Assembly: GCF_009914755.1 (NCBI RefSeq)
Contig: NC_060933.1
DNA length: 64,000 nucleotides
Direction: 5' to 3' (one strand)
Source: the human T2T-CHM13v2.0 reference genome, Homo sapiens
Positions 27,850 to 42,918 of this stretch are shown piece after piece (the first letter of the stretch is position 1; each line of letters starts with the position of its first letter). The notes under the pieces are model-generated. The model was not told the DNA's origin. It worked only from the letters and a program-made list of their open reading frames with translations, and searched no databases. The position numbers and the translations under genes were made by a program.

Positions 27850-27929
27850 CAGGCCTCATGTCTGCAGCACTGGGACTCAGCACGCCCTCTTCAAAGGGGA
27901 TGTCCATTCCTACATCCTCTGACAGTAGT
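27850..27929 (-). CDS. PRUNE2: PRUNE2 internal coding exon (80 nt, phase 2 to 1): (R)LLSEDVGMDIPFEEGVLSPSAADMRP(E)
   Basis: Acceptor ttttttgcag|ACTA and donor CCTG|gtgaga. Peptide recognised as the PRUNE2 C-terminal region; phase fits the next exon. Confidence 0.93.
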
Positions 27930-30503
27930 CTGCAAAAAAAGCAAAGCAAAGCGCGTCAACAACAACTGTGTAAGACTTCATTTCTTTTGAAAAGGAAACC
28001 CACAGAGTCCAGGATAACATTTTCAACTCACTTAAAATAAACCATGTATGGGGACTGAATCCACTGTAAGTGGTCCCAAATTAAAGACTTTCTGCAGTTA
28101 TGGTAAATGAGAAAAATGGACACCAATTTCACTTGCTTACATCAAGTCACTTCTGCTAGCTCACTTAATAAACACACACCAAGTGGGAAACTCAGAAATA
28201 GGAAATGCAAACAACTAATAAAATATACTTCGGGGACATTTAATATATATATATTTTTAACAACAGGGTCAATATATGTGCTTTGTACACATCTCTTACT
28301 CTGTAAATTTGAGTATTTTAATTAAATTCCCATGGACAGAGGGAGAGCATATTCTGTTGATCTCAGTTTTCATTTGTAAACTAGGGATATACACCTACTT
28401 CACCACGTTGTTTAAAGATTAAGCTACAAAAGTAAAGTGCCTAACACTCCTGAGCAGGCATAGACTGATGTTATTTTTCTTCCTTTTTTGAATATTTAAA
28501 GAGTCACTGTGAATATATGTTGGTGAAGATGGCTCTGGTCATGACTTCCCACCTCTTGTTTCTAATCAGTGCTGAGCCCACAACCATCTGTATTAGCACA
28601 TTTGGTAAGAAGTGTAGGGAAACAGGAAATACCAAAGGCAATTGTGACGAATCTATATGTTCTTCTAAGAAGCTGACCACTGTTCACGATAAATTTCTCT
28701 TGATTTATTTTCATCCCTGGACCTTTGTTCAGTAAGACCCCATTTACCATAATATATATTTCTTCTCTGTGAGTTTCACGTAATTTCATTCACCTAGGGT
28801 GAGTCCTTATGATGTGGGCACTAACCTAATTTTAAACATGATAAACCTTTATGTTAAAGTTCTTAATTTAGTCCCCTTCTGCCTCTCTTACTGTACTTTG
28901 CACTATGTAACGCTGGATCTACCAAACCTTTGGAGTTTAATCTGCTTCTCCAGGATGCAAGTCAAATCCCCTACTGTCAATAAAGCACTATGATGAAAGA
29001 AAATAATCTGCACCCTTAGCGATTACTGCATTTGCTTCATTTATTCAACAAATATCTATTAAGTGTCTACTATGTGCCGAGGATATAGAGGAACAAAACA
29101 GACCCGTCTCATTCTCGTGGTGGAGTTGGGATGATGGAGCTAATACAATGACCCCTACCTTCAAAAACTCAGTGCTGCTCCCCTGGATAGAGGTAAGTGC
29201 CTGTGTACTTACCTACCAACTCCTGAGACCCCTTCAAAAGCTCAGCATCAGGGAGTTTCTTTGTCCACATTCTTCCTGTGGCTTTGACCCTGTGTGTTCT
29301 CTAAAACTAGACCTGTGCCCTGGTAGCAAAGGGGCATGCAAGAGGTTGGCATGTAAGACAGACAATAATGTATCAGCAGGAACAAGACAACCTGTGCCAA
29401 ACAGAGATACACTATGATAGGTGGAATCAAACCACGTTATTCAGCAACAAAGATTGGGGAGGTATGCAAAGAGAAGATCTGCACCAGGCCCCAGTTTTGA
29501 AAGTCCTAGGACCTAGAGGGACAGATGTCTGGGTATCCCATGATCCTGCAGTTTTTGGAATTCCTTACAATGATCTTTGTCATTTTGTGTGTTCTCCTTG
29601 ACATCAAACTTCTCGTACCTGTCAAGTAGCAAAATGCTGCTATTAAGAGCCACTGGGTTTAAATCTTAGTTCTACCACTTACTATGTTGGATTGAATTAT
29701 TGAGCCTGAAATATTCTAAAGGCACATGTACATTATTTTTCTAGTTATCTGCCTAAGAGTCAACCTTGAACAAAAATAAAGATATCAGATTTCTATCTGC
29801 CTGACAGAGCACACAGGATGTGGGCCTTGGCATCAAAATAAATATGATGGTTTTAAAATAGATAGGATCAGCTTAAGTTTAATAGATTTTTTTAAACAAT
29901 TGTGAATTATGGGCAACATCATGGAATAATTGCAGGAGTCCTGCCTGGATATGAGGTTTTAGTTCTGAGTTATAGTTCTGCTGCCAGTATCAACAAGCTG
30001 ATTAACTCTGAGAAGATTAGTTGGCCATTTCTGTGATTTTAAAAGGGGATAATACCCAACATCACAGTGACTGTGGAGAATAAATACAATCCAAATAAAA
30101 GTACTCTGTAAGTCATAAAGCACTGTCTGAGTTTAAGGTATTACATACCCTCCACTTAAAACATAGTACAGGAGCAGTGGTTTAATTAAAGTATGTGTCA
30201 TGGTTGGACAAATCATAATTAAGGTCACTATAATTTGGGCATTAGTCCAGGTAAAAGATAATCTTATTACTGCACAAATCTCCACAGAGCCTAGAAATGC
30301 TCCTCAACTCATTGATGTTAGAAAATAGAGCCTTTGCCTCTAAGTGCTCCTTTTCAACACAAAGCAGAGACCCTATGAAGAAGGCACAGATTTCTTCCCC
30401 CTGTGTTAGCATGCACCGGGGGAAGAAAAATGCTGAAGGCTGTGATCAGCGGATGACCCAAGGAGAGAGATTCACACAAACCCATGGATATTAAAGAAGG
30501 CTA

Positions 30504-30800
30504 GGCCGGGCGCAGTGGCTCACGCCTATAATCCCAGCACTTTGGGAGGCTGAGGCGGGTGGGTCACCTGATATTGGGAGTTCAAGAACACCCTGACCAA
30601 GATGGAGAAACCCCATCTCTACTAAAAATACAAAATTAGCTGGGTGTGGTGGCGCATGCCTGTAATCCCAGCTACTCGGGAGGCTGAGGCAGGAGAATTG
30701 CTTAAACCTGGGAGGCAGAGGTTGTGGTGAGCTGAGATGGTGCCATTGCACTCCAGCCTGGGCAAAAAGAGCAAAACTCCGTCCCACTCCCCCCCAAAAA
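30504..30800 (+). mobile_element. Alu (AluSp/Sq-like)
   Basis: TSD aaagaaggcta. Confidence 0.92.
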
Positions 30801-31284
30801 GAAGGCTATAGGGACATGTTAGAAAACCCCTGGGACAGAGGGAAAGCTGAGCCAGAATAGCCTAGAAGCAAATCTAAGAGAAACCCAAGTCACGCTCTTT
30901 GTAAATACTTCAACCACATTCATACATTAAGCCCATAAACATTTGCAGAAATGAAGTGGCCAAACAGCAGTTGTTGACTAAGCAGGACAGCAGTTTTGTG
31001 ATCAGTAACTGAAGCCTCTCAAGATCTGTTAGGTAACAAACCAGTCCAGTGTAAAGGTCTGTATTTTACTTTATCTATCTGTAGCCTCTACTTAATTTTG
31101 AGTTTCTTTATACAGAATGGAGCTAACCAAGAGGTTGAGGGAGTTGTAAACACAAGTCAGGCTGTACTATGGCTGAAACAGCTACATGTCTCCATCTAGA
31201 GGATGTATTAAAACTGCTTCATGGTTTCTTTGCTGGATGGTACTGTGACATTAACACCATGTGTGTTAGAAGATCAATGTATTA

Positions 31285-31655
31285 TGACATATTGATCTTC
31301 ACCAAGTATTTCTGGCTCTCTGCCTTTTGAGTGCATGGTAGTATTGCACTTTCCTGTCCCCTTTGAAGTTAGGGTAGCCACATGACTTGCTTTGGCTAAT
31401 GAAGAAAGAGTGGAAGGGAGAGATGTCGCTTCTGAGCAGAAGGCTTAGGAGCAAGCGTGTGAGGAGCCACATCCTCTTCCCACATAGGTGGCTGTGGAGG
31501 GGCTCGGCCAGGCTGTGTCCCGAGTGCCTCTGATGAGCAGAGGCCTCGATGAAAGCTTGCTGGAAATGTAAACAAGAAATGAACTTTTGTTGTGTTTTGC
31601 CCTGAGATATTGTAGTTATTTGTTACCACATTACGATCTAGCCCATTCTTACTAT
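31285..31655. mobile_element. MLT1-like MaLR LTR
   Basis: 'ccacatgacttgctttggctaatgaa' and 'ttgttaccacattacgatctagcc'. Confidence 0.65.
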
Positions 31656-41249: not shown

Positions 41250-41580
41250 CTTCCATAGCAAAGTATCGCACACAGTAACTTCACCAACAGAAATTTACTC
41301 GCTCACAATTCTGGAGGTTGGAAGTCTGAGATCAAGATGTCATCAGGGTTGGTTTCTTCTGAGGCCTCTCTCCTGGACTTGAAGATGGCCATCTTCTCTC
41401 TCTGTTTTCACAGTCATCCCTCTGTGTGTGTGCATGTCCTAATCTCTTTTCCTCATAAAGACACCAATCCTACTGGATTAGGGCCTACCCTAATGAATTC
41501 ATTTTAAAGAAACCATCTCCAAATAGAAGATAGGACTTCAACATATATGGATTTGGAGAGACACAATTCAGTGCATAACA
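41250..41580 (-). mobile_element. MLT1A/B-like LTR
   Basis: 'ctcacaattctggaggttggaagtctgagatcaag...acacaattcagtgcataaca'. Confidence 0.75.
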
Positions 41581-41739
41581 GGTGGGATATTACAAAATGA
41601 CTCAAATCTACTACTGTCCATGGGGTCACTGCACCCACAGAACACCTATACCACCTTGTCCCTCCACACAGTGATCACACTGTGTACAAGATCACACACA
41701 GTACAAGGTCACACCACCACCACCCTCTCAAGAATGTTC

Positions 41740-42048
41740 TTTTCTTTTCCTTTTTCTTTTTTTTTGAGATGAAGTTTCACTCTTGTCACCCAGGCTGGAG
41801 TGCAGTGGCGTGATCTCGGCTCACTGCAACCTCCGCCTCCTGGGTTCAAGTGATTCTCCTGCCTCAGCCTCCTGAGTAGCTGGGATCACAGCTGCGGGCC
41901 ACCACACCCAGCTAATTTTTGTATTTTTAGTAGAGACAAGTTTTCACCATGTTGCCCAGGCTAGTCTCGAACTCCTGACCTCAGGTGATCCACCCACGTT
42001 AGCCTCCCAAAGTGCTGGGGTTACAGGCATGAGCCGCCATGCCCAGCC
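41740..42048 (-). mobile_element. Alu (AluS-like)
   Basis: Full dimer; TSD-like gaatgtt. Confidence 0.9.
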
Positions 42049-42609
42049 TCGAATGTTGTTTTCATTGGCTCAGGCAGGATCAGGGCAGACCCACAGTCCA
42101 GTCTAAGCTGACTTCCAACTGGGCGTGAGATGCCAGTCTTCCTTGTGGAAGGAATTCCAACTCTTTACCCAGGACTCTTCTGGGGCAACCCTCACTTGGC
42201 TTTGGAGGAGCAGAAAGGGATGCACCCCAGTACTCCTAACAAGGCAATGACTTCATAATTCCCTCACTCCTCCCGAGTCTTCTGCTCACATGGAATGGGT
42301 TGAGTTGGGTAAATCTGAGTCACCTTTTAAGAAGCCTTCAGGGAAGCATCTACCCCAACTGCCAAGAGCTTCTTGCCCTCTCTCTCTTTGGGATAAAGAG
42401 TACTTTGCACCACTTTGCCCTCAGCCTTGGACCCTAGTTGTTCATTCAGTGACTTAACAAAATCTTCAGGGAGGAGCCAAGATGGCCGAATAGGAACAGC
42501 TCCAGTCTACAGCTCCCAGCGTGAGCGACGCAGAAGATGGGTGATTTCTGCATTTCCATCTGAGGTACTGGGTTCATCTCACTAGGGAGTGCCAGACAGT
42601 GGGCACAGG

Positions 42610-42918
42610 TCAGTGGGTGCGCGCACCGTGCGCGAGCCGAAGCAGGGCGAGGCATTGCCTCCCTTGGGAAGCGCGAGGGGTCAGGGAGTTCCCTTTCTGA
42701 GTCAAAGAAAGGGGTGACGGACGGCACCTGGAAAATCGGGTCACTCCCACCCGAATACTGCGCTTTTCCGACGGGCTTAAAAAACGGCACACCACGAGAT
42801 TATATCCCGCACCTGGCTCGGAGGGTCCTACACCCACGGAGTCTGGCTGATTGCTAGCACAGCAGTCTGAGATCAAACTGCAAGGCGGCAGTGAGGCTGG
42901 GGGAGGGGCGCCCGCCAT
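42610..42918 (-). CDS. L1 antisense ORF0 (MAGAPPPASLPPCSLISDCC...), open for 102 codons, with splice donors at +106 and +191
   Basis: ATG at 42918 in a strong Kozak context (GCAATGG). Donors CCAG|gtgcgg (exon end 42813) and CCAG|gtgccg (exon end 42728). Expression is not shown by the sequence. Confidence 0.7.
   Translation of the reverse strand: MAGAPPPASLPPCSLISDCCASNQPDSVGVGPSEPGAGYNLVVCRFLSPSEKRSIRVGVTRFSRCRPSPLSLTQKGNSLTPRASQGRQCLALLRLAHGARTH

What the first reader, a model, noticed from the sequence alone, without database searches (positions are those of the whole stretch)
27850..42918. Intronic L1 antisense promoter and ORF0 are phase-matched to PRUNE2 exons, predicting an in-frame ORF0-BCH fusion
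Seen in sequence: the L1 lies on +, so its antisense promoter and ORF0 (ATG at 42918, GCAATGG) run in the PRUNE2 sense direction, about 14.8 kb upstream of the 80-nt exon. ORF0 is open. Donor 2 (TCC AG|gtgccg, +191, phase 2) joined to the phase-2 acceptor at 27929 gives ...GVTRFS-R-LLSEDVGMDIP..., i.e. 63 ORF0 residues fused to the whole BCH region. Donor 1 (CCA G|gtgcgg, +106, phase 1) joined to 25110 gives ...GPSEP-E-PPNSLD, also in frame. Established: primate L1 ORF0 uses these two donors to fuse with neighbouring exons, and L1PA2 antisense promoters are activated on demethylation; BCH domains regulate Rho signalling. Inference: an ape-specific, methylation-gated short PRUNE2 isoform driven by an otherwise dead L1.
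Basis: partly seen in the sequence, partly recalled or inferred. Interest (0 to 1): 0.85.

Follow-up and report, generated by a model that had tools for sequence, protein, structure and literature searches.

The report
Dead L1 in PRUNE2, in-frame ORF0
A broken L1 retrotransposon inside a PRUNE2 intron still carries its small antisense gene (ORF0) in a reading frame that would fit the next PRUNE2 exon, but this fit is what chance gives and no spliced transcript has been seen, so it remains an ordinary, testable prediction.

Summary
The sequence facts are right. A full-length L1PA2 (about 6.03 kb, + strand, 42469 to about 48505) lies in PRUNE2 intron 9. ORF1 and ORF2 are broken. The antisense ORF0 start (42918, strong Kozak context) and both GT donors (last exonic bases 42813 and 42728) are intact. 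Donor 2 to exon 10 (27929) and donor 1 to exon 11 (25110) read open through all seven exons in the window.

The frame match is not special. All seven PRUNE2 acceptors in the window are phase 1 or 2, so one of the two donors fits each of them. The intact cassette is a family trait: 30 of 30 nearest copies keep the ATG.

One published table already lists this L1 as giving antisense chimeric reads in brain and glioma (Pinson 2022, Id_1815). Those reads run unspliced over both donors, were not validated, and could be PRUNE2 pre-mRNA. The same paper found no methylation link at the 6 L1 promoters it assayed (not this one) and found LCT levels following the host gene.

No spliced L1-PRUNE2 junction appears in the RefSeq table or in the catalogues I could search.

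Verdict: an untested new member of a known kind. Interest is low to moderate.

The parts
42469..48505 (+). Full-length L1PA2 in PRUNE2 intron 9, about 6.03 kb, followed by an A-rich tail to about 48530
   Evidence: The 5' end was read and includes the YY1-box region at L1 nt 13-21. The 3' end and A-run were read. RepeatMasker row in Pinson 2022 Table S1: L1PA2, 6038 bp, + strand, 24 per mille divergence. No target-site duplication longer than 7 nt was found.
43375..44388 (+). ORF1 remnant, broken
   Evidence: ATG at 43375 (L1 nt 909). Stop at codon 32, and further stops in the 340 codons translated from 43375.
44439..48286 (+). ORF2 remnant, in pieces across two frames
   Evidence: The longest open stretches are 222, 629 and 441 codons in frames 2, 2 and 1.
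42610..42918 (-). ORF0 of this copy: 102 codons plus stop, ATG at 42918 (L1 nt 452)
   Evidence: Translation. The numbering agrees with the A451G start-codon change described by Garza 2023. No Pfam family matched.
42812..42813 (-). Donor 1, exon|intron boundary CCAG|GTGCGG, phase 1
   Evidence: It matches 6 of 9 positions of the recalled CAG|GTAAGT consensus. The same place is used in ESTs CB989728 and CB989782 at another locus.
42727..42728 (-). Donor 2, exon|intron boundary CCAG|GTGCCG, phase 2
   Evidence: It matches 5 of 9 consensus positions and lacks G at +5. The identical 11-mer is in 22 of the 30 nearest copies. The same place is used in ESTs CF594064 and CF594290.
42581..42581 (-). 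Splice acceptor inside the L1 (L1 nt 115), first exonic base; it competes for donor 2
   Evidence: The motif ...ccctag|TGAGATGAAC is present here. ESTs CF594064 and CF594290 join donor 2 to this acceptor. In this copy that join gives a 108-codon ORF that ends just outside the L1.
42919..43066 (-). Expected antisense-promoter start zone upstream of the ORF0 ATG (L1 nt 453-600)
   Evidence: Placed from the literature only. Antisense starts are mapped to +300 to +500 and +150 to +250, and within the first 600 bp. No start site was measured for this copy.
42227..42856 (-). Stretch covered by the published unspliced chimeric reads (Pinson 2022, Id_1815)
   Evidence: hg19 chr9:79284714-79285343, converted with hg19 = window + 79,242,487. 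That offset comes from the 614-bp interval shared by the RefSeq enhancer row.
42192..43419 (.). H3K4me1 ChIP-seq peak in H9 embryonic stem cells, listed as two 614-bp bins; the first bin is the RefSeq 'enhancer' 42192-42805
   Evidence: Barakat 2018 Data S1, file ChIP-seq_peaks_H3K4me1.bed: chr9:79284679-79285292 and 79285293-79285906.
27850..27929 (-). PRUNE2 exon 10 (80 nt), acceptor phase 2; in frame with donor 2
   Evidence: The exon number was counted back from primers of PMC12558363 that hit exons 15 and 16.
24910..25110 (-). PRUNE2 exon 11 (201 nt), acceptor phase 1; in frame with donor 1; start of the BNIP2 region
   Evidence: Pfam PF12496, E 6.1e-14, profile positions 2-61 of 137.
1601..17325 (-). 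PRUNE2 exons 12-16 (17155-17325, 10602-10704, 9834-9965, 8879-8965, 1601-1699): rest of the BNIP2 region and most of the BCH (CRAL_TRIO_2) domain
   Evidence: Exon 12 matches PF12496 at E 4.4e-21. Exon 14 matches PF13716 at E 4.7e-4 (20.9 bits, below the 23-bit cut-off). Exon 15 matches PF13716 at E 4.8e-5 (24.1 bits). Exons 13 and 16 alone match nothing.

Best explanation
This is an ordinary, fixed, coding-dead L1PA2 in intron 9 of PRUNE2, inserted antisense to the gene. It keeps the antisense promoter/ORF0 cassette that nearly all copies of its subfamily keep.

Most likely course (inferred): when the PRUNE2 locus is transcribed, the antisense promoter fires weakly. The RNAs mostly run unspliced over both ORF0 donors into the intron and are lost.

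A minority may splice in three ways:
- Donor 1 to exon 10, which is out of frame and stops at codon 41.
- Donor 2 to the acceptor inside the L1 at 42581, which gives a 108-codon ORF0 variant.
- Donor 2 to exon 10, which is the in-frame ORF0(63 residues)-PRUNE2 C-terminal fusion.

The frame fit is a coincidence of the two donor phases with the intron phases of this part of PRUNE2. It is not a sign of selection. Any fusion protein is at most rare and is unproven.

Shown: the anatomy, the frames, the family-wide conservation and the unspliced reads. Inferred: initiation at this copy, the proportions of the splice outcomes, and the lack of function.
For: Anatomy and frames.

Family trait, not a locus-specific one: of the 30 nearest copies fetched (out of 3878 first-look candidates, 40 scored), 30 of 30 keep the ATG, 29 of 30 keep donor phases 1 and 2, 25 of 30 have the same 102-codon ORF0, and 22 of 30 have the identical donor-2 11-mer.

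Phase match expected: 7 of 7 acceptors in the window fit one of the two donors.

Published reads at this exact L1 (Pinson 2022, Id_1815): 13 chimeric pairs, in 6 of 8 gliomas and 2 of 3 control brains. They are contiguous from the L1 5'UTR into the flank, so they are unspliced across both donors.

In the same study:
- Only 44 of 1509 chimeric transcripts (2.9%) were spliced at the 5' end.
- Expression followed the host gene.

Base rate quoted by Criscione 2016 for Denli 2015: 57 fused loci out of about 3200 genic ORF0 loci.

A donor-2 to internal-acceptor splice is documented at another copy, and the acceptor is intact here.

No exon in the L1 appears among the 41 RefSeq PRUNE2 transcripts (hub table). 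PRUNE2 is not in the searched catalogues.
Against: - Absence from catalogues is weak evidence. ESTs are shallow. Jonsson 2019 considered only L1s overlapping GENCODE v25 start sites. I do not know whether the two held files of the 2026 atlas list gene symbols or were cut.
A PRUNE2 fusion could sit in either.
- This copy has every part needed: a first-AUG ORF0 with a strong context, both donors, and a strong next acceptor with no annotated exon in between.
- PRUNE2 is expressed in brain, where L1PA2 antisense promoters are reported active.
- An H3K4me1 peak covers this 5'UTR in H9 stem cells.
- In Pinson's RT-PCR walk, 31 of 32 tested L1PA1-7 chimeras did start inside the L1. Real initiation here is therefore plausible, and in very deep data some donor-2 to exon-10 reads may well exist.
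Confidence: 0.65

Rival explanations
1. In particular states (embryonic stem cells, tumours, demethylated cells, some neural cells) this L1's antisense promoter acts as a real alternative PRUNE2 promoter. Donor 2 splices to exon 10, and an ORF0-BNIP2/BCH fusion protein is made that alters Rho signalling.
For: - All sequence requirements are met, and the frame is open through exon 16.
- ORF0 is the first AUG for any start within L1 nt 453-804.
- Donor 2 is used at other copies.
- ORF0-exon fusions and L1PA2 antisense promoters driving genes are documented elsewhere.
- N-terminally shortened, in-frame BCH-bearing PRUNE2 isoforms exist and differ in activity.
- An H3K4me1 peak and a RefSeq enhancer row lie on this 5'UTR in H9 cells (hub table).
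Against: - No junction, start site or peptide evidence was found anywhere I could search (hub table).
- The only reads at the locus are unspliced.
- Donor 2 matches only 5 of 9 consensus positions and lacks G at +5. It also has a documented competing acceptor 147 nt downstream.
- Donor 1, which comes first, is out of frame with exon 10.
- Methylation gating was not seen at the 6 antisense promoters assayed by Pinson.
- The frame match carries no statistical weight.
Confidence: 0.08
2. There is no initiation at this copy at all. The published chimeric reads are PRUNE2 pre-mRNA (intron 9) seen in total-RNA libraries. Whatever regulatory activity the L1 5' end has in stem cells is enhancer-like rather than promoter-like.
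For: - The libraries were Ribo-Zero total RNA.
- The L1 lies in an intron of a gene transcribed on the same strand as the reads.
- The reads stop at about window 42856, 62 nt short of the ORF0 ATG. No start is shown, and the fragment size limits how far into the L1 a read pair can reach.
- The locus was not among those validated by the RT-PCR walk: its LCT_validated column reads FALSE.
- 92% of intragenic chimera-producing L1s have the antisense promoter co-oriented with the host gene, against 68% of all such L1s, and levels track the host gene. Pre-mRNA would give exactly that pattern (my inference).
- RefSeq labels 42192-42805 an enhancer (hub table).
Against: - 31 of 32 tested L1PA1-7 chimeras failed to amplify with a primer upstream of the antisense promoter, so most such chimeras do start in the L1.
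- In long reads, 173 of 204 chimeras had a 5' end within the first 500 bp.
Confidence: 0.25

Closest known systems
L1 ORF0-exon fusion transcripts (Denli et al. 2015, known here only through citing papers)
   Same: Primate L1 5'UTR, antisense promoter, ORF0 start at L1 nt 452, and two internal donors at the same places. ESTs show both in use. A host exon lies downstream on the same strand, in frame.
   Different: For those loci the junctions were observed. Here none is. ORF0 in this copy is 102 codons rather than 70/71, because the frame differs downstream of donor 2. That difference would not alter a fusion.
L1 chimeric transcripts (LCTs) of brain and glioma, Pinson et al. 2022 (passages, section 5 and Tables S1/S2 read)
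   Same: This very element is listed there as Id_1815: L1PA2, 6038 bp, host gene PRUNE2, chimera on the gene strand, low read counts, unspliced like 97% of that set.
   Different: It was not validated by the RT-PCR walk and is not in the earlier EST literature. The table says nothing about coding potential or frame.
L1PA2 antisense promoter driving LINC01876, and L1-MET (Garza 2023, passages; L1-MET as cited)
   Same: A full-length, hominoid-age L1 whose antisense promoter supplies a start site to a neighbouring transcription unit.
   Different: Those cases have RNA-seq, H3K4me3 or RT-PCR support and, for LINC01876, a loss-of-function phenotype. At LINC01876 the ORF0 start codon is lost in humans, whereas here it is intact.
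Known short PRUNE2/BMCC1 isoforms: BMCC1-3 (2724 aa) and BMCC1-4/BNIPXL (769 aa) (Clarke 2009, passages)
   Same: N-terminally shortened proteins, in frame, that keep the C-terminal BCH domain and come from internal start sites.
   Different: Their start sites lie further upstream in host sequence, not in a repeat. The predicted fusion would be shorter: 63 ORF0 residues, then a junction codon, then PRUNE2 from exon 10 onwards, with a foreign N-terminus.

Membership tests
L1PA2 (full-length primate LINE-1) | RepeatMasker assignment and near full length with 5'UTR, ORF1, ORF2, 3'UTR and poly(A) | tested here: met
   rmsk row in Pinson Table S1: L1PA2, 6038 bp, + strand, 24 per mille divergence. 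The 5' end, the ORF1 ATG at L1 nt 909, the ORF2 pieces and the A-tail were read. I did not run RepeatMasker myself.
L1PA2 (full-length primate LINE-1) | Target-site duplication flanking the insertion | tested here: inconclusive
   The longest exact match between the 40 nt upstream and the 110 nt after the tail is 7 nt.
Retrotransposition-competent L1 | Intact ORF1 and ORF2 | tested here: not met
   ORF1 has a stop at codon 32. ORF2 is split into open stretches of 222, 629 and 441 codons.
L1 ORF0 cassette | Antisense ATG at L1 nt 452 in a strong Kozak context, with an open frame | tested here: met
   Numbering checked against Garza 2023.
L1 ORF0 cassette | Two GT splice donors inside ORF0 | tested here: met
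   Positions +106 and +191. ESTs leave ORF0 at exactly these places. Three papers state that there are two donors. None of the texts I could read gives the donor coordinates.
L1 ORF0 cassette | ORF0 length of 70/71 codons | tested here: not met
   102 codons here and in 25 of the 30 nearest copies; 71 codons in 1 of 30.
L1 chimeric transcript (LCT) locus | Stranded read pairs joining antisense 5'UTR to the unique flank | tested here: met
   Id_1815, 13 pairs in 8 of 11 samples. This is published data, not my own mapping.
L1 chimeric transcript (LCT) locus | Transcription start inside the L1 5'UTR (RT-PCR walk, long reads or CAGE) | not testable with these tools
   The LCT_validated column reads FALSE for this locus. 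No expression data can be queried here.
ORF0-gene fusion (Denli type) | Observed splice junction from an ORF0 donor to a host exon | not testable with these tools
   No RNA-seq access. Not in the RefSeq table (hub) or in the searched supplements. The Denli list is not held.
ORF0-gene fusion (Denli type) | Reading frame continuous from ORF0 into the host coding sequence | tested here: met
   Donor 2 to exon 10 gives 354 codons and donor 1 to exon 11 gives 299 codons, with no stop within the window.
BCH-domain protein (BNIP-2 family) | BNIP2 region followed by a CRAL_TRIO_2/BCH domain in the retained C-terminal part | tested here: met
   PF12496 in exons 11 and 12 (E 6.1e-14 and 4.4e-21). PF13716 in exon 15 (24.1 bits, above the cut-off) and exon 14 (20.9 bits, below it). 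Exons were scanned one by one, and exons 17-19 are outside the window.

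The most novel reading that the evidence does not exclude
A hominoid-age L1PA2 supplies PRUNE2 with a state-specific internal promoter and a 63-residue ORF0 N-terminus. The product would be a short BNIP-2-like ORF0-BCH protein, made in stem cells, neural cells or tumours, whose location or Rho-regulating activity differs from the 3088-residue protein. 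That would be a lineage-restricted new isoform of a tumour-suppressor-like, brain-enriched gene, built from an otherwise dead retrotransposon.
Probability: 0.08. Interest if true: 0.55.

Novelty: new member of a known kind. Interest (0 to 1): 0.28.

Why it matters
If the fusion were real, it would add a concrete, protein-level case to the short list of ORF0-host fusions. It would sit in a gene tied to Rho signalling, prostate cancer (PCA3 lies in the same gene) and brain function. It would also give a handle on how young L1s create lineage-restricted isoforms.

As it stands, the value is mostly cautionary. The two ORF0 donors are phase 1 and phase 2, so any co-oriented intronic young L1 is 'phase-matched' to the next exon unless the intron is phase 0. 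Frame compatibility alone should therefore not be used to rank such candidates.

Tried and rejected
**Primary sources**
- Denli 2015, Speek 2001 and Matlik 2006 are not held. The donor coordinates and the list of 57 fusions come only second-hand.

**Literature searches for the locus**
- PRUNE2 + 'antisense promoter' + LINE-1: 0 papers.
- PRUNE2 + L1PA2: 1 paper, with unrelated mentions.
- PRUNE2 + LINE-1 + chimeric: 3 papers. I opened one, a TDP-43 review that lists PRUNE2 only among mis-spliced genes.
- PRUNE2 / transposable element / promoter / chimeric transcript: the 15 listed papers all have 0 mentions of PRUNE2.

**Supplement searches for PRUNE2**
- 0 hits in Criscione 2016 (10 files).
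- 0 hits in Jonsson 2019 (5 files).
- 0 hits in the 2026 chimera atlas (2 files).

**Ideas dropped**
- I considered that donor 2 might be privately weakened by a 1-nt insertion in this copy. That was rejected: 22 of the 30 nearest copies carry the same 11-mer.
- I looked for a target-site duplication. Nothing longer than 7 nt turned up.
- I screened intron 9 for pyrimidine-rich YAG sites as decoy acceptors. Four crude hits came up (35755, 35342, 33201, 31395), but without a splice-site model they say little.
- I ran no MaxEnt-type scoring, structure prediction or complex prediction. None would bear on whether the transcript exists.

Full report
**1. What is there**

On the + strand a full-length L1 begins at 42469. 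Its first bases include the YY1-box region. It runs to an A-rich tail that starts near 48495.

A published RepeatMasker table lists it as L1PA2: 6038 bp, + strand, 24 per mille diverged, hg19 chr9:79284954-79290991. It is the only L1PA2 with a 5'UTR listed between 78.4 and 79.9 Mb of chr9 (Pinson 2022 Table S1).

I tied hg19 to the window through a 614-bp interval. The hub's RefSeq 'enhancer' 42192-42805 has the same length as chr9:79284679-79285292 in Barakat 2018 Data S1. That gives hg19 = window + 79,242,487 and puts the RepeatMasker start 2 nt from the start I read.

The element is dead as a retrotransposon. ORF1 (ATG at 43375) stops at codon 32, and ORF2 is in pieces. The 5'UTR keeps 31 CpGs in 906 nt (observed/expected 0.43; 0.67 in the first 500 nt), against 0.15 in the 2 kb upstream. 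No target-site duplication longer than 7 nt was found.

**2.

- On the minus strand the ORF0 ATG is at 42918, which is L1 nt 452. That is the same numbering as the A451G start-codon change described by Garza 2023. G stands at -3 and at +4.
- It is the first ATG for any transcript starting within L1 nt 453-804.
The last exonic bases are 42813 (phase 1) and 42728 (phase 2).
- The native PRUNE2 frame is unambiguous: 0 stops, against 22 and 20 in the other two frames.
- Donor 2 joined to 27929 is open for 354 codons. Donor 1 joined to 25110 is open for 299 codons. Both run to the last exon in the window.
- The retained part encodes the BNIP2 region (exons 11 and 12) and the CRAL_TRIO_2/BCH domain (exons 14 and 15).
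- Primers from a PRUNE2 splicing paper place exons 15 and 16 at 8879-8965 and 1601-1699. The 80-nt exon is therefore exon 10, and the L1 lies in intron 9.

**3. Corrections**

- ORF0 here runs 102 codons, not 70/71.
- Donor 1 joined to the nearest exon (exon 10) is out of frame and stops at codon 41.
- Exons 17-19 are outside the window.

**4. Is it more than chance? No**

The two ORF0 donors are phase 1 and phase 2. All seven acceptors of PRUNE2 exons 10-16 are phase 1 or 2. Joining each donor to each exon shows that exactly one donor gives an open frame for every one of the seven. A co-oriented L1 landing in any of these introns would have looked 'phase-matched'.

The intactness of the cassette is not special to this locus either. 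I tabulated the 30 most similar copies in the same genome. They came from 3878 first-look candidates, of which 40 were scored and 30 fetched. The window's own copy is among them, and the choice is biased towards look-alikes.

| Feature | Copies out of 30 |
|---|---|
| ATG kept | 30 |
| Donor phases 1 and 2 kept | 29 |
| 102-codon ORF0 | 25 |
| Identical donor-2 11-mer | 22 |
| 71-codon ORF0 | 1 |

**5. Are these the donors that L1 really uses? Yes, by direct evidence**

In the peptide/EST table of Criscione 2016, ESTs CB989728 and CB989782 leave ORF0 exactly at the donor-1 place and continue in host sequence. CF594064 and CF594290 carry ORF0 from its ATG and leave it exactly at the donor-2 place.

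The latter two do not join a host exon, however. They join an acceptor inside the L1 itself. That acceptor is intact in this copy (first exonic base 42581, L1 nt 115). Used here, it would give a 108-codon ORF0 variant that ends just outside the L1. Donor 2 therefore has a documented competitor 147 nt away.

Against the recalled consensus CAG|GTAAGT, donor 1 matches 6 of 9 positions and donor 2 matches 5 of 9, with no G at +5. The PRUNE2 donors in the window match 5 to 8 of 9.

**6. Expression evidence for this locus**

The hub's RefSeq table shows no exon in the L1 among 41 PRUNE2 transcripts.

Pinson 2022 (Ribo-Zero stranded RNA-seq of 8 IDH-wild-type gliomas and 3 control brains) lists this L1 as chimera Id_1815:
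- Read counts are 1, 2, 3, 1, 2, 2, 0, 0 in the gliomas and 0, 1, 1 in the controls.
- The host gene is PRUNE2.
- It was not validated by the RT-PCR walk, and it is not in the earlier EST literature.

Converted to the window, the reads cover 42227-42856 on the minus strand without a gap. They run unspliced over both donors and end 62 nt short of the ORF0 ATG. They show antisense-strand RNA across the L1 edge, and nothing more. In an intron of a gene on the same strand, pre-mRNA would look the same (my inference).

Two results argue for real initiation in general. 31 of 32 tested L1PA1-7 chimeras started inside the L1, and 173 of 204 had long-read 5' ends within the first 500 bp.

- Only 44 of 1509 chimeras (2.9%) were spliced at the 5' end.
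- Levels followed the host gene.
- At the 6 loci assayed, no inverse correlation with L1 promoter methylation was seen. The authors note that the antisense core (+450 to +800) is CpG-poor.

**7. Chromatin**

The H3K4me1 peak file of H9 embryonic stem cells holds two adjoining 614-bp bins that together equal window 42192-43419. That covers 277 nt of flank plus the whole 5'UTR, including the ORF0 start. Only that one file of the archive is held as text, so I could not see the STARR-seq activity class. RefSeq calls only the first bin an enhancer. This is mild support for an accessible 5'UTR in stem cells. Mapping inside a young L1 is uncertain.

**8. Negative searches**

- PRUNE2 or its aliases: 0 hits in the 10 supplementary files of the 988-transcript EST catalogue.
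- 0 hits in 5 files of the DNMT1-knockout study, which only considered L1s overlapping GENCODE v25 start sites.
- 0 hits in the 2 held files of a 2026 long-read chimera atlas, whose content I could not inspect.
- Full-text searches pairing PRUNE2 with L1 terms found nothing relevant.
- Not seen: Denli 2015 and its fusion list and the Garza 2023 supplements. Either could hold the locus.

**9. Reading**

The best account is an ordinary dead L1PA2 whose inherited ORF0 cassette happens, as expected, to fit the phase of the next exon. Antisense RNA from it, if any, is weak, tied to PRUNE2 transcription and mostly unspliced.

Criscione quotes a base rate from Denli of 57 fused loci among about 3200 genic ORF0 loci. 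That rate, the 2.9% splicing rate, the weak donor 2 and its internal competitor together make an abundant in-frame fusion unlikely.

The fusion is still a clean, cheap-to-test prediction. Short in-frame BCH-bearing PRUNE2 isoforms are known and differ in activity, so a further one would not be without interest.

**10. Novelty**

If real, this would be a new member of a known kind (ORF0-host fusion, or L1 antisense alternative promoter). The L1 and its chimeric reads are already in a published table. The in-frame relation to PRUNE2 was not found in print in the searches named above.

Noticed in passing
window 42610-42918 (-); loci L001-L030: In 25 of the 30 nearest genomic copies ORF0 is 102 codons long, and only 1 of 30 has the 71-codon form given in the literature. 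The frames differ just downstream of donor 2 (GTGCCGT against GTGCGTC). The L1PA2-type unspliced ORF0 product would therefore have a different, longer C-terminus than the L1HS-type.
   Followed up: partly
window 42581 (-): A splice acceptor lies inside the L1 5'UTR antisense strand (L1 nt 115). ESTs CF594064 and CF594290 at another copy use it with donor 2, which makes a small intra-L1 intron. The acceptor is intact here.
   Followed up: partly
window 42192-43419: An H3K4me1 peak in H9 embryonic stem cells spans the flank and the whole L1 5'UTR. The RefSeq enhancer row equals its first 614-bp bin. Barakat 2018 names PRUNE2 among genes that switch from one enhancer to another between naive and primed cells. 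I could not tell whether this element is one of those enhancers.
   Followed up: partly
window 24910-25110 and 17155-17325 (-): Exons 11 and 12 match Pfam BNIP2 (PF12496) strongly. The L1 therefore sits just upstream of the whole BNIP-2-like module (BNIP2 region plus BCH), and exon 10 adds only 26 full codons before it.
   Followed up: yes
window 27850-27929 (-): A transcript that starts downstream of the ORF0 ATG and splices from either donor to exon 10 would first meet a one-codon upstream ORF (ATG then stop) in exon 10. Eight nt later comes a native in-frame Met. An ORF0-less truncated PRUNE2 is therefore also possible.
   Followed up: no
PRUNE2 gene; place in the window unknown: PRUNE2 is listed among genes with TDP-43-linked mis-splicing. 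A long-read study of frontotemporal dementia reports skipping of exons 17 and 18 in astrocytes and a disease-associated cryptic exon in one intron. I did not find which intron, so any relation to this L1 is unknown.
   Followed up: no
window 36064-37011 and 49891-50028 (+): The lncRNA LOC105376095 runs on the same strand as the L1's sense promoter, and the L1 lies within one of its introns (hub table). I did not examine whether the L1 sense promoter or read-through feeds the exon at 49891-50028.
   Followed up: no
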